A stretch of 64,000 nucleotides of DNA from Eledone cirrhosa (Eukaryota), in assembly GCA_964016885.1 (NCBI GenBank), contig OZ024741.1, positions 34,348,001 through 34,412,000 of the forward strand, written 5' to 3'. The position numbers and the translations under genes are program-made. Under the pieces are notes generated by a model, which was not told the DNA's origin, did no database searches, and worked only from the letters and a program-made list of their open reading frames with translations. Below are positions 1,831 through 55,000 of this stretch, one piece after another. Position 1 is the stretch's first letter. The number at the start of each line of letters is the position of its first letter.

Positions 1831-4575
1831 ATATATATATGTATATATATGTTCATTCTGTCATTACTAACACAGAGGTCTGACGAGCTTTTGAGTCGGG
1901 CCAAATCGATACAGATCGAACCTTGAGCTGATCAGTAGCAAAACGCGCATCACCAACCAATAAATGTAATGAAGGATTAACCATAGGGTCAGACATGCTT
2001 TCCAGCGTAGTTACGTCCCTTTACGATCTGAGTTCAAATCCCGCCGAGGTTAACTTTGCCTTTCATCCTTATGAGGTCAATAAAATATAGTACCAGTAAT
2101 GTACTGGGTAATTGCTGGCCTTGTGCCAAAAGTAGAAACAATTATATTATTATCGGTAGAGGGTCAGACGCCATGCTTTGACGCATAGAGTTACGGCCCT
2201 TGTTATTCTGAGTTCAAATTCCGCTGAGGTTAACTTTGCTTTTCATCCTTACGGGGTCAGTAAAATAAAGTACCAGTAATGCACTGAGTAACTGCTGGCC
2301 TTGTGCCAAATGTAGAAGCAGTTATTATAATTACACTCTGTTTAGCTGTACACCTCAATACCGACGTGAACCTAAACATCGAGTGCTCACCTGGGTCAAC
2401 CTACAGTAACTTCATGTTACACTCCCTCGATATATATATATATATATATATATATATATGGTGTTAGGAAGGGCATCCAACTGTAGAAAACCTGCCAGAC
2501 AGTCCACGCTGTAATGTGGCCGTGTAGGCAACACGGTAAAAACCTCCCAGCCCCACACTGTAAATGTGGTTGGTGTTAGGAAGGGCATCCAACTGTAGAA
2601 AACCCGCCAGACAGTCCTATGCGAGCAAGACAACCACTCTTGCCTCAAGTGGGAAAACTCCCGTCCAAACCCATGCAAGCATGGAATACGGACGTTAAAC
2701 GATGATGATGATGATGATGATGATGAGTCCCATGTTCAATCAGGGGTTACCACAGCATGTACAACAAAATTTAATATAGAAATGGCTTCTACAGGACTAG
2801 AACTGTTTCATTCGAAGGAAATCATCAAGAAAGCTTTCCTGATGATTTCCTTTGAATAAAACAGTTCTAGTCCTGTAGAAGTCATTTCTATATTAAATGT
2901 TGTTATGTGTGTATGTATATATATATATATTTGTATAGATACACACACACACACACACACACACGTACACCCTGTGTGTATGTATACATGTATATGCATA
3001 TATGTTATGCTGTGTGTGTGAGAGACTTGTGCTTTAATGTACATTTAGTCACATGTTCATCTAAGTCCATGTCAGGCAAGGATTGATTGATTAACTGTAA
3101 AGCAGTTGTGACCCACATTTTTATGGTGACTCCCTAAAGAGAGTGTGTCCTGTTACAGAACAGCTGTATGTGCCCTGTAATAGCAAAGGAAAGCTGAGAC
3201 TAGGAAGTTGTTTAGTAACAGGGGTGTGTGTGCTCCTGCTGTAATCCCTCCTACTATCCCACTCTCTCCCTAAACATTGCGCTATATAGTGGATGGAGGA
3301 AGGGGATTAAACAGCATTTTTAGGCTTCTTTCTCTAGTGTGTTTGGAATTGACACATGCATATATATATATATGTGTGTGTATATGTATATATACATACA
3401 CACACACATACGTGAGGGAGTTCTTTACCCCTTAAGCAAGTTTGTTCATTGCATAAATATTTCACATAATAAACAGGATAGGAGAAAAATATATTAAATA
3501 ATGGAAAACATTGAAGTGAGGGGCCGACTCTATGCCCAAGGTTAGGTGGTGTAGCCCAGTAGACAAAATGGTGAAAACTTTGCCTCGGAAAACAGCCGGT
3601 GACACCCACTGTATCAGCCATTCCACAGTATGAGGTTTTTTCATCAGACTGAATGCATTCCTCTCAATTTTGTGGAGTAAAATGGCTGTTTGGGTACTTG
3701 GGACACCAGAGATCTCGATGGTGACCAGTACTAAAAAGGAGTAGATGGTTAAGTCTCAATATTTGGACATCTTCTGCTCCTCTGCATTGTAGTCCTCGGT
3801 TTTGTGGCTGAAGCAACATGGTTGGAGCTGGAGAACATGTCACAGCATGCGGTGTCTCAATAAAGATTTACCTCTCTTGAATGAGAAAACAATTATCTCA
3901 TCAGCACATTTACTCTTGTATACCCTCTTAGTGATGGCAGTCATTCATGTCTGGAAACCGCTTGTTGAATATAAAGCCAGTCAGTTCATCTTTAGCATTC
4001 AACTATTTCCTTTAACCATTTACCATTTACATAATTATGGAGGCACATGGCTTAGTGGTTAGAGCATTGGCCTTGCAATCGAAAGGTTGTGAGTTCAATT
4101 CTCAGACCAGGTGATGTGTTGTTTCCTTGAGCAAGACACTTTATTTCACATTGCTCCAGTTTACTCAGCTGTAGAAATGAGATGATAGGACTGGGATCCC
4201 TATCATTCCACTGCAAAGTGGTCGTGGAGGTGCCACAGCAAAAAGCACCCAGCACTCACTGGAAAGTGACCGTGTAGGCGCCACAGAAAAAAAGCACCCA
4301 GCACTCACTGTAAATGAGGTTGGTGTTAGGAAGGGCATCCAGTTGTAGAAATCAAGCCAGAATCAGTTCCCGTCCCACCCTTGCAAGCAGGGAAAAGCGG
4401 ACGTAAAATGATGATGATAACTCTATATATACTATTGTATATATGGTAAAGGCTTTACTACACATAATTATCTCGCATAATATCGAATCTATGAGATTTT
4501 GATATTATTTATTTTGAGAACAATAGCTTAACATTAGTACGAGCGGCCAGTTACAGCCGGTTTGAACAGAAAGTA

Positions 4576-52000: not shown

Positions 52001-55000
52001 AAGGACTTGACCTGTTTGGTCCAGTTTGACTGTGTGGACATTTACCATGGTGTTGGATGGAAGAAAAAGTACCATGCTCCCACTGATTACTGCTTTGCAC
52101 TGAAAGTAAGTGTAGAGGACTACATTGTCATCACTTCTGTCTTTTACTGTCATCATCATCACTACCACCATCATCATCACTGTCATCACCACTGCTATCA
52201 CTCTCATCATCACCATCTCCACCATTATCAATCTCACCACCACCACCACTCTCATCTCCACCATCACCACCATCATCTCCACCATCATCATTATCACACT
52301 CCTCCATCTCCTCATAACACATTCCCATAACCATCCCTTCAATTTATATTTCAGCATCCACAAATCCAGAAGAAAACATCCAAATACATCCGCTACCTTT
52401 GTGCAGAGAATAAAGCCACGTTAGATCTATGGATTATGGGGATACGTATTGCCAAGGTCAGTCTCTCTCTCTCTCTCTCTCTCTCTCTCTCTATATATAT
52501 ATATATATATATATATATATATATATATATATATATATATATATATATATATACACACACACAGTTGTCCCCTAGTATTCTCAGGTTACGTTCCTAGAAC
52601 ACCCTCGAAGAGTGAAAAACCGCGAATATTGGATGTGGTCCATAAAAATGCCTATAAATGTCAAAACATAACGTAAGATACAGGCCGGCAAACACAGTAT
52701 ATTGTTATTAATAATTTAGCATTAAAAAGCATGAAAAAATATATATTGCCATTAAAAAATCGCATAAGATATTTATGATTCCGCGAATATGCAGTGGTTT
52801 CCACGAACAATTAGTTAGGTTGTGAGGAAAATTCCACGAATGTTGGGCATACACTGTATATATATAAATAGCTTCTACAAGATTAGAACAGTTTCATTGT
52901 ATGAAACATTTCAAGTCATGTAGAAGTCATTTCTATATATATGATAAAGATGCCTATATGCTACCAATGTATTGAATACCTTTTTTAGCTGTGGTTACCC
53001 CCGACACACATAATTCAGGAATCTACATCCTCAGTTGTGTCAAAACCATGATAACCTCCCTAATGTTGGTGATATACAAGGGTCGGCTGAAAAGTTCATA
53101 GGCTGATCAAGATACTCTCATGGAATGACCAAATGAGTTATATTTTTCAACATGGTCTCTGAAAAGAAACAACACAAGATTTCACAGCTCTAGCATCATT
53201 CCTTCATAATCAGCTTATGAACTTTTGAGCCTACCCTTGAACATGAAATAATGCATTCAGTACACTCTAGAAAGGCATCCAGCCATAGACAACCTGCTAC
53301 ACAATCACACATAAACATAGCACACATCTATTCCTTGCTTGTTTCCTTAAAGCTTACCATGATTCCATTGGTATACATTTATTACTCAATTTACACCTGA
53401 TAAGGTCACCGGGTTCATATGCAACCTGGCCACTGAAATGTGCATAGTGTTTACAGTAATAAAAGATTAAGGAAATTCAACATATTTGGCTTCCTGTCAT
53501 TTCACTTTATAATATATATATATATATATATATATATATATATATATATATAAATGAACACTGGCGAGAGCTTCAAGATAGTAAAGAATCATCTGTACTC
53601 TACCAACATGCTAAAATAGAACATAAGGATAAATTAGAGAACATAGAAATAAAAATAGAATCTACACACAGAAAAGACGCAATGTTTAGACAAATCACAG
53701 AGGCAATAAACATAAATGAACTCCAACCAAAATTAAATAGAAAACATGAATGGAACAGCAACATCACAACTTACAATTAAGGACAAAATGGAAACACACA
53801 CATAGAACAAACAACCAACCAGTAACATGTAAATAAACAAATAAATAAACAAATATAAACACACACAGACACCCGGATGTTATACATGTGCAAACTAAGC
53901 ACACAACACACACAAAAACAAGATGGCGTAGGACAGAACAAAGGAGAGGCACAAAAACAAAGAAAAGAATCCCCAGTCAGTGAAGAGGTCACAGAATGTG
54001 TGACGAAAGAACTTTGACAATATATGAACAATCGTCTGGTTGTGAAACTAACCAACCAACCAACCAGAAATTTATAAATTTAATTTATAATAAATTGGAG
54101 TGAAAGCAACTGGTGCGTGTGTTTCTTATTGGAAACATGACCCTCCTAAAGCATAACAATATCGGTTTCAACACATGTTTTCAGATAAAGAATCTTGCTA
54201 AACAAATTCAGAAACGAAATATATATATATATATATATATAAGTTAACGAAATATTGTTTAAGGTAATCCAAGTAGAGGTTCTGAGTACTCTGTATCAAG
54301 GATAGTTTTAATGTTTGGCGTTGTTTGACTCAAAAGAAGTTTCCTTAGTATGTGTGTATATATATATATATGTGTGTGTGTGTGTGTGTGTGTGTGGTGG
54401 TATTAAGTTAGACATGGCCTGGGCCAACACATGCTGAAATCTATCAAAATTATATGCACATTTATGTATATTTATTTGTTTATGATTCATGCATACAATA
54501 ATTCATTTGCAAACAGTGGTTTCATGAACTCACAAAGTTTGCAGAGGTATTGCAAAAAGTCTTATTGGAAATGCCGAGAAAAACATTGGGGGGGGGGGGA
54601 TAAAAGGGAGGTAACTTTGGTTTGTAAAACCTTTTTTTTTTTTTTGAAAAATAACTGGGGAAATATAACAGAACTATTGTAAGTCTGTCTACTACATACA
54701 CATACACTATTAATATATATCTATATAGCCTTTCACATATATGTACACAAACTCATGCTATCAGACATTTATCTGTGTAAAACACGGCTTGGTACTTGTG
54801 TGCCACCCGTGGATATGCTTACAAAATCAGAAAACAGTACAGCTCCCATGACTTTCGGAAACATTGTCTATATGCATCACATGTCCATACCAACACAGTC
54901 TTCTCCCTTAACTCGTTGTACATCCAACGGAACATAGTTGGTTCATTTCTCTCCAGTCTACACATGTCCTCTGCAGTCTCAGTCAATGTTTCACTAACAT

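What the first reader, a model, noticed from the sequence alone, without database searches (positions are those of the whole stretch)
2769..53450. Dispersed intronic hammerhead-ribozyme elements: intact cores only antisense to the host gene
Seen: several unrelated hairpin elements carry the type-I hammerhead layout stemI-CUGANGA-stemII-GAAA-stemIII-NUH-stemI. Intact CUGANGA+GAAA cores lie on the minus strand at 6217-6260, 40254-40311 and 47130-47174. Every + strand (pre-mRNA sense) counterpart I found is damaged: 2834-2884 has GAAA->AAAA; 6270-6315 has CTGGTGA and AAAA; 53393-53450 has CTGATAA; the + arm is deleted in the 47106-47194 copy. Known: minimal hammerheads with short, often palindromic stem III occur in Penelope-like element pseudo-LTRs, which are often inverted. 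Inference: selection removes sense-strand self-cleavage of the host transcript. The sample is small, and the minus arm at 2769 is also mutated (C3->U).
Basis: partly seen in the sequence, partly recalled or inferred. Interest (0 to 1): 0.72.

Follow-up and report, generated by a model that had tools for sequence, protein, structure and literature searches.

The report
Penelope hammerhead stumps facing both ways
The predicted self-cutting RNA motifs in this octopus gene's introns are real and are likely leftover ends of Penelope-type jumping elements, but a survey of 21 genes finds intact ones facing both ways, so the proposed antisense-only rule does not hold.

Summary
The motifs, strands and mutations are in the sequence as described, all inside introns of a + strand RAPH1/lamellipodin gene of an octopus-type genome. 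They belong to four unrelated, multi-copy repeat families with the insertion anatomy of Penelope-like elements (inverted 5'-truncated twin, one-sided tail, (TA)n target).

The antisense-only rule fails. I surveyed 1.6 Mb between coding exons of 21 genes. Of 206 elements outside the window, the core is intact on the sense strand only in 41, antisense only in 59, both in 34 and neither in 72 (p=0.089). Requiring intact helices gives 30 versus 38 (p=0.40). RAPH1 itself has four intact sense cores upstream of the window. The window's pattern (sense 0 of 4, antisense 3 of 5 intact) has p=0.17, and two of its three 'intact' copies have a broken helix.

Most likely these are passengers decaying near-neutrally, partly at CpG, and predicted to be inert as monomers or zipped up by their own antisense twin. 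A weak bias (about 40:60; myosin genes 8:22; tandem arrays 2:6) is not excluded. The scan has noted such elements, including sense intronic copies, elsewhere in this genome.

The parts
2769..2898 (.). Family A fold-back element: two head-to-head hammerhead arms forming a near-perfect hairpin
   Evidence: 2522 first-look candidates, 40 scored; hairpin -90.2 kcal/mol
2733..2768 (-). Partly deleted one-sided tail of the family A element
   Evidence: the same tail lies on one side of most copies shown; sequence
2787..2831 (-). Family A hammerhead, antisense arm, C3>U at 2828
   Evidence: most other copies carry the standard base at 2828
2836..2880 (+). Family A hammerhead, sense arm, G12>A at 2858
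   Evidence: most other copies carry G at 2858
6185..6345 (.). Family B fold-back element inserted at (TA)n
   Evidence: 2500 first-look candidates, 40 scored; hairpin -99.4 kcal/mol
6217..6260 (-). Family B hammerhead, antisense arm; core intact, helix I cut to 3 pairs, pyrimidine mismatch at 10.1:11.1
6268..6316 (+). Family B hammerhead, sense arm; A6>G, G12>A at a CpG, one base lost at the cleavage triplet
6346..6400 (+). One-sided tail of the family B element
40253..40310 (-). Family C hammerhead, solo, within a repeat of about 40201-40440; core and helix II intact, first pair of helix I broken
   Evidence: 517 candidates, 40 scored
46700..46885 (.).
47106..47194 (-). Second family A copy; hammerhead 47130-47174 has an intact core but helix II reduced to 2 pairs; inverted arm reduced to its outer end
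52860..52935 (.).
53393..53450 (+). Family D hammerhead, solo, sense, G8>A, within a repeat of about 53290-53512 that ends at (TA)n
   Evidence: 1669 candidates, 40 scored
53556..53770 (+). C-terminal remnant of a Penelope-type endonuclease ORF (48-50% identical over 60 aa to the end of a 773-aa RT-endonuclease ORF found elsewhere in the genome)
   Evidence: ORFs
53976..54018 (+).
6999..57723 (+). RAPH1/lamellipodin host gene, coding exons near 6999, 36251, 45473, 46304, 49734, 51992, 52343 and 55177-57723; two more coding exons 97 and 150 kb upstream of the window

Best explanation
The motifs are type I hammerheads carried at the 3' ends of several multi-copy repeat families, likely 5'-truncated insertions made by Penelope-like retroelement enzymes, and they likely sit in the RAPH1 introns as near-neutral passengers whose strand pattern in this window is a small-sample effect. 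Mechanism: the element's RT-endonuclease would cut AT-rich DNA and copy the RNA from two fixed start sites, which gives the one-sided tail (inferred from Frangieh et al.). Copying often stops within a few bases of the hammerhead, leaving a solo stump or a head-to-head fold-back (geometry shown: 62 of 71 pairs divergent). After insertion the cores decay at about the same rate on both strands, partly by CpG deamination at 11.1-G12 (shown for family B). A sense copy is predicted to cut rarely: the helix III is of the dimer-dependent type, and in fold-backs the antisense arm is transcribed first and would zip up the ribozyme arm. A slow cut in an intron would likely be tolerated by splicing (literature, not tested here).
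For: Anatomy: one-sided tails and (TA)n flanks in families A, B and D, matching Craig et al. and Frangieh et al.. Other hammerhead families flank RT plus GIY-YIG ORFs (Pfam GIY-YIG over its cut-off in 3 of 8 ORFs scanned and RVT_1 below its cut-off in 3 of 8), and an endonuclease remnant lies in the window before the 53976 hammerhead. Strand test: 41 sense-only, 59 antisense-only, 34 both, 72 neither of 206 elements (p=0.089); with helices 30, 38, 20, 118 (p=0.40); one arm per strand per element, 74 of 108 sense versus 92 of 122 antisense intact (permutation p=0.20); core changes 40 versus 38 and non-core divergence 8.9% versus 8.7%. Solo orientation is 63 versus 68. RAPH1 as a whole is 4 versus 4; family A is 8 of 15 sense versus 8 of 12 antisense intact. 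Family B dinucleotide at 11.1-12 in 42 arms of 21 elements: CG 14, TG 11, CA 11, other 6. Predicted probability of the hammerhead pairs inside whole fold-backs is 0.000 in 6 of 6 folded.
Against: Most pooled strand tallies lean to antisense. With the window included the sign test gives 41:62, p=0.048; myosin genes alone give 8:22, p=0.016 (one of four gene classes, post hoc); same-strand arrays with two or more intact units are 2 sense (5 units) versus 6 antisense (24 units), p=0.29. No ORF was linked to families A-D themselves; a young sister of family A has a non-coding body of at least 480 bases. Families A and B have a pyrimidine mismatch where G10.1-C11.1 is reported as highly conserved, so their activity is doubtful. 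33 of the 75 elements with an intact sense core have no upstream twin, so masking cannot cover them. The 600 kb assigned to receptor genes rests mostly on colinear Pfam hits; a wrong strand there would dilute a real bias.
Confidence: 0.75

Rival explanations
1. Weak purifying selection against sense-strand cleavage: most sense copies are tolerated, but the active minority (dimer-competent tandem arrays, long-helix monomers, highly expressed genes) is removed, giving a pooled ratio near 40:60.
For: 41:59 outside the window with 95% interval 0.31-0.51; myosins 8:22; exon-verified genes together 16:26 (p=0.16); arrays 2:6; discordant pairs 6:12 including one window pair.
Against: No pre-planned test reaches p<0.05 once the discovery window is removed. 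The lean shrinks when intact helices are required (30:38) and is the same in young (19:26) and older (22:33) copies. RAPH1 upstream and the dyneins lean the other way (4:1, 4:3).
Confidence: 0.18
2. A small antisense excess exists but has nothing to do with cleavage. It would come from strand-asymmetric mutation in transcribed DNA or from selection on promoter, splice or poly(A) signals in the elements.
For: G12 was lost in 10 sense versus 3 antisense full-length arms; non-core G>A was 26 of 642 sense versus 22 of 750 antisense. Antisense bias of intronic retroelements is a published theme in mammals (search listing and abstract starts only).
Against: Solo elements show no orientation bias overall (63:68), and the non-core difference is small.
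Confidence: 0.05
3. One reading: selection removes essentially all sense-strand self-cleaving copies from introns, so intact cores survive only antisense.
For: In the window 0 of 4 full-length sense arms are intact.
Against: 75 of 206 elements elsewhere keep an intact sense core. Four lie in RAPH1's own upstream introns (L073:32, L073:3654, L073:4195, L066:4278; three with helices), and one family-A-type copy lies about 200 bases after a splice donor of a glutamate-receptor-like gene.
Confidence: 0.02

Closest known systems
Minimal hammerheads of metazoan Penelope-like elements (Cervera and de la Pena 2014, PMC4209133; parts 1-2 of 4 read)
   Same: Type I layout, short palindromic helix III, U3-A8 variants, many families per genome, mostly dispersed truncated copies, and pairs on opposite strands close together; low activity reported even as dimers.
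   Different: Families A and B carry U.U or C.C/C.U at 10.1:11.1 instead of the conserved G-C, and family A has a 4-pair helix III with an 8-base loop. The parts read do not mention cephalopods or orientation within introns; supplements not seen.
EN+ Penelope-like element insertion unit (Craig et al. 2021, PMC8557442; Frangieh et al. 2024, PMC11167929; passages read)
   Same: Inverted 5'-truncated copy next to the pseudo-LTR, tail at one end only, (TA)n or AT-rich targets, hammerhead near the 3' end, RT followed by a GIY-YIG domain in neighbouring families.
   Different: Tails here are about 55-65 bases rather than 30-40. Families A-D were not tied to an ORF, and clades were not assigned by a tree.
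Animal non-LTR retrozymes (Cervera and de la Pena 2020, PMC7229834, passages; Li, Clavereau and Pollet 2026, bioRxiv 10.64898/2026.07.22.740005, part 1 of 5 and passages)
   Same: Non-coding, hammerhead-bearing, Penelope-related repeats; 310- and 463-base tandem arrays occur in the surveyed introns. Li et al. report depletion from Xenopus introns.
   Different: The window copies are single stumps or fold-backs, not tandem arrays. Li et al. did not test strand (no occurrence of 'antisense' or 'orientation' in the text). Circular RNA was not tested here.
Conserved intronic hammerheads of amniotes (named in PMC6765202 passages; details recalled)
   Same: A hammerhead motif inside a host-gene intron.
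   Different: Those are rare, conserved and thought to serve the host; these are high-copy, decaying and on either strand.

Membership tests
Type I minimal hammerhead of Penelope-like elements | CUGANGA, GAAA and UH core in type I order | tested here: met
   majority state in copies of all four families; three window arms intact
Type I minimal hammerhead of Penelope-like elements | Helices I and II able to pair | tested here: met
   family representatives pass the descriptor; only 1 of the 3 core-intact window arms does
Type I minimal hammerhead of Penelope-like elements | Short palindromic helix III | tested here: met
   16 of 50 clusters perfectly palindromic and 42 of 50 within one mismatch; B and C have one mismatch, the A and D representatives one or two; the descriptor itself demands some pairing here
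Type I minimal hammerhead of Penelope-like elements | Conserved G10.1-C11.1 pair | tested here: not met
   U.U in family A and C.C/C.U in family B; G-C in the window copy of C and G.U in D
Type I minimal hammerhead of Penelope-like elements | Self-cleavage as monomer or dimer | not testable with these tools
   needs an in vitro assay
Rfam hammerhead families | Match to a curated covariance model | tested here: not met
   no hammerhead row (150 of 196 shown; 40 kb rich in young copies)
EN+ Penelope-like element insertion | Adjacent inverted 5'-truncated copy | tested here: met
   families A and B; 62 of 71 pairs in the survey are divergent
EN+ Penelope-like element insertion | Tail at one end only and (TA)n target | tested here: met
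EN+ Penelope-like element insertion | RT plus GIY-YIG ORF upstream of the hammerhead | tested here: inconclusive
   met for other families and, as a remnant, for the 53976 element; not found for families A-D in the loci held
Non-LTR retrozyme | Non-coding unit in tandem repeats | tested here: inconclusive
   a sister of family A is non-coding in 8 of 8 loci but not tandem there; tandem arrays were seen in other families
Non-LTR retrozyme | Circular RNA intermediate | not testable with these tools
   no RNA reads available

The most novel reading that the evidence does not exclude
Octopus introns carry about 120 core-intact hammerheads per megabase from some 50 sequence clusters (a few hundred thousand genome-wide if the sample is typical). 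Selection acts not on all sense copies but on the cleavage-competent minority, chiefly sense tandem arrays able to form dimers and copies in highly expressed genes. The genome would then be a natural, strand-controlled experiment on how much intronic self-cleavage splicing tolerates, and would give population-level evidence that Penelope hammerheads cut in vivo.
Probability: 0.18. Interest if true: 0.6.

Novelty: new member of a known kind. Interest (0 to 1): 0.24.

Why it matters
As found, it is an ordinary case: Penelope-type hammerhead stumps in introns, and the proposed antisense-only rule is wrong. What remains useful is the density (134 elements and 120 intact cores per Mb of intron) and the built-in control that each fold-back offers, one sense arm and one antisense arm of the same age. 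Whether Penelope hammerheads cleave in vivo is open in the papers read. A genome-wide strand count in an annotated octopus genome would test it cheaply. Searches for 'hammerhead ribozyme' + 'octopus' and 'Penelope' + 'intron' + 'orientation bias' listed no paper on such a test; most subscription journals are not in that library.

Tried and rejected
Rfam scans found no hammerhead model match. This is not taken as evidence against the motif, because young copies with perfect helices are missed too.

MITE or microRNA hairpin: rejected, because the palindromes have a tail on one side only, variable inversion points and solo or longer relatives.

Linking families A-D to an ORF: tblastn hits near family B and D loci belong to neighbouring insertions. 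An 'LN.KEW'-like reading in a longer family A relative was followed up and led to a non-coding element.

Expression: no RNA holder listed. Laying four runs on 2000-7200 showed only repeat pile-ups.

Lunse et al. on small hammerhead variants (PMC5785218) is not held, so variants with a 10.1:11.1 mismatch may be described there. Supplements of Cervera 2014 and Craig 2021 were not opened and may list octopus families.

The alignment held two rows with wrong coordinates and was not used. The survey stopped at 1.6 Mb, which limits power to effects stronger than about 35:65.

Rows dropped or changed before counting: blast candidates under 70% identity to a family representative; 56 of 319 arms flagged as 5'-truncated were left out of the per-arm tests; one arm was relabelled intact after inspection; 8 window elements were excluded from the main test.
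Full report
Setting. The window is G000:C2:34348001-34412000 of a 3.0-Gb genome. Its long ORF at 55147-57723 is 90% identical to an Octopus RAPH1/lamellipodin protein. That protein maps to eight coding exons on the + strand of the window and to two more 97 and 150 kb upstream.

Observation. All cores and mutations are as described. 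The named elements fall into four unrelated families, A (2769, 47106), B (6185), C (40253) and D (53393), with 2522, 2500, 517 and 1669 first-look candidates, 40 scored each. Other copies show that intact cores are the usual state. 'Intact core' overstates the three minus-strand copies: the family C copy has lost the helix I pair next to the cleavage site, the 47130 copy keeps two pairs of helix II, and only the 6217 copy passes a helix-aware descriptor. Three more elements lie in the window, among them a sense hammerhead at 53976-54018 behind an endonuclease remnant. Rfam has no matching model.

What they are. Families A and B are head-to-head fold-backs whose inversion point lies a few bases 5' of the core, with a 55-65 base tail on one side only and (TA)n flanks. 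This is the insertion structure described for EN+ Penelope-like elements (Craig et al., passages), and the tail has been traced to two reverse-transcription start sites (Frangieh et al., passages). Hammerheads of this kind, with palindromic helix III, opposite-strand pairs and low activity even as dimers, were described by Cervera and de la Pena (parts 1-2 of 4). In the DNA I fetched, other hammerhead families flank ORFs with RT and GIY-YIG motifs; Pfam found GIY-YIG over its cut-off in 3 of 8 ORFs and RVT_1 under its cut-off in 3 of 8, and nothing in 4 of 8. Families A-D were not tied to an ORF. A young sister of family A has a non-coding body of at least 480 bases in its longest copies and two fixed 3' ends, so family A is likely a non-autonomous rider.

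Strand test. I took 1,597,190 bases lying between coding exons of 21 genes of known strand: RAPH1, 13 myosins, 3 dynein heavy chains and 4 ANF-domain receptor genes (fetched). tblastn found only sense-strand exons in myosin IX, the three dyneins and six other myosin genes. The receptor intervals rest on colinear Pfam hits, with one internal exon seen directly. The descriptor gave 56 sense and 75 antisense hits, 0 in reversed and 1 in complemented sequence. These and hits in the search loci (192 seeds) formed 50 clusters. Searching with one real representative per cluster recovered 319 arms, damaged ones included, grouped into 214 elements: 131 solo, 71 pairs and 12 with three or more arms or two on one strand.

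Result. Of 206 elements outside the window, 41 have an intact core on the sense strand only, 59 on the antisense only, 34 on both and 72 on neither (sign test p=0.089, sense share 0.31-0.51). Requiring helices gives 30, 38, 20 and 118 (p=0.40). Counting one full-length arm per strand per element, 74 of 108 sense and 92 of 122 antisense arms are intact (permutation p=0.20), with 40 versus 38 core changes and equal non-core divergence. RAPH1 upstream of the window has 4 sense and 1 antisense intact cores. The window's own table has p=0.17. The antisense-only rule is refuted.

Results against neutrality. With the window's elements the sign test is 41:62, p=0.048. Myosins give 8:22 (p=0.016, one of four classes, post hoc), receptors 25:33 and dyneins 4:3. 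Same-strand arrays with at least two intact units, the ones able to form dimers, are 2 sense versus 6 antisense, one element counted on both sides (p=0.29). The lean does not grow with age (19:26 young, 22:33 older) and weakens when helices are required, which is not what selection on cleavage predicts. The sample cannot exclude a 40:60 effect.

How it most likely works. Shown: insertion geometry, decay on both strands, and CpG decay at 11.1-G12 in family B, where 42 arms read CG 14, TG 11, CA 11 and other 6 (loci ranked by likeness to the window copy). The 6185 element took the harmless change on one arm and the G12 change on the other. Predicted: the fold-backs form hairpins of -90 and -99 kcal/mol, and the hammerhead pairs have probability 0.000 in 6 of 6 whole elements folded; isolated family A arms fold into the hammerhead at about +0.3 to +0.8 kcal/mol. 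Because the arms diverge, the antisense arm is always made first. 42 of 75 elements with an intact sense core have such a twin and 33 do not; for those the argument is dimer dependence and slow cleavage. From the literature: introns cut by a hammerhead were still spliced, whereas a fast HDV ribozyme blocked splicing (as summarised in PMC2995048, passages). No cleavage or expression was measured here.

Verdict. Real hammerhead-type motifs of a known kind in new families; the selection story in its strong form is wrong, and a weak form keeps about one chance in five. Earlier notes of this scan describe similar elements in this genome, several in sense orientation within introns; they are unchecked and were not counted as evidence. 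Density is high, 134 elements and 120 intact cores per Mb; a section title in PMC7229834 gives up to 120,000 for axolotl, so a genome-wide total of a few hundred thousand would be large but of a known order.

Noticed in passing
window 17589-31705: A 14-kb tandem array of 21- and 18-base units inside a RAPH1 intron, with multi-kilobase open frames in two frames that are probably a by-product of unit lengths divisible by 3.
   Followed up: no
window 7376-11252 and 4573-5559: A 154-base minisatellite (25 copies, 97% matches) and a 12-base-unit array in the same gene.
   Followed up: no
window 36865-37533 (-) and 38069-38299 (+): Fragments of a LINE-type reverse transcriptase C-terminus, partly inverted; also tRNA-like matches at 48202-48272, 42488-42545 and 4048-4105.
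   Followed up: no
L217:1880-5590 (antisense, nine 463-base units); L161 (six intact 310-base units plus an inverted one): Young tandem hammerhead arrays in introns of a receptor gene and a myosin gene, both mainly antisense; retrozyme-like. Locus coordinates approximate.
   Followed up: partly
L257:2131-4449 (+), L130:1623-3947 (+), L255:6513-8999 (-), L247:6428-8827 (-), L181:4876-6885 (-): Long Penelope-type ORFs of 670-829 aa of at least three kinds; three have a YRDD-type or otherwise divergent RT that Pfam does not recognise, possibly the Hydra clade.
   Followed up: partly
L079/L078 region of RAPH1 (window coordinates about -138,700), L265, L234: A subfamily with a U3-A8 core and A13 replaced by C in both arms of three separate insertions, one of them flanking a 417-aa RT-endonuclease ORF: the element seems to have spread with a non-canonical core. 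The RAPH1 copy lies in L073.
   Followed up: no
L228:8153 (-): A fully intact sense hammerhead of the family A group about 200 bases downstream of a splice donor of a metabotropic-glutamate-receptor-like exon; a good test case for splicing assays.
   Followed up: partly
families A and B, genome-wide loci L001-L059: In these query-ranked loci the inversion point sits within about 12 bases 5' of the catalytic core, as if reverse transcription stalls at or just past the hammerhead; the query itself selects for this, so it is only a lead.
   Followed up: no
L274:about 480-590: A U6 snRNA-like stretch (label recalled, not tested) lies between two hammerhead elements.
   Followed up: no
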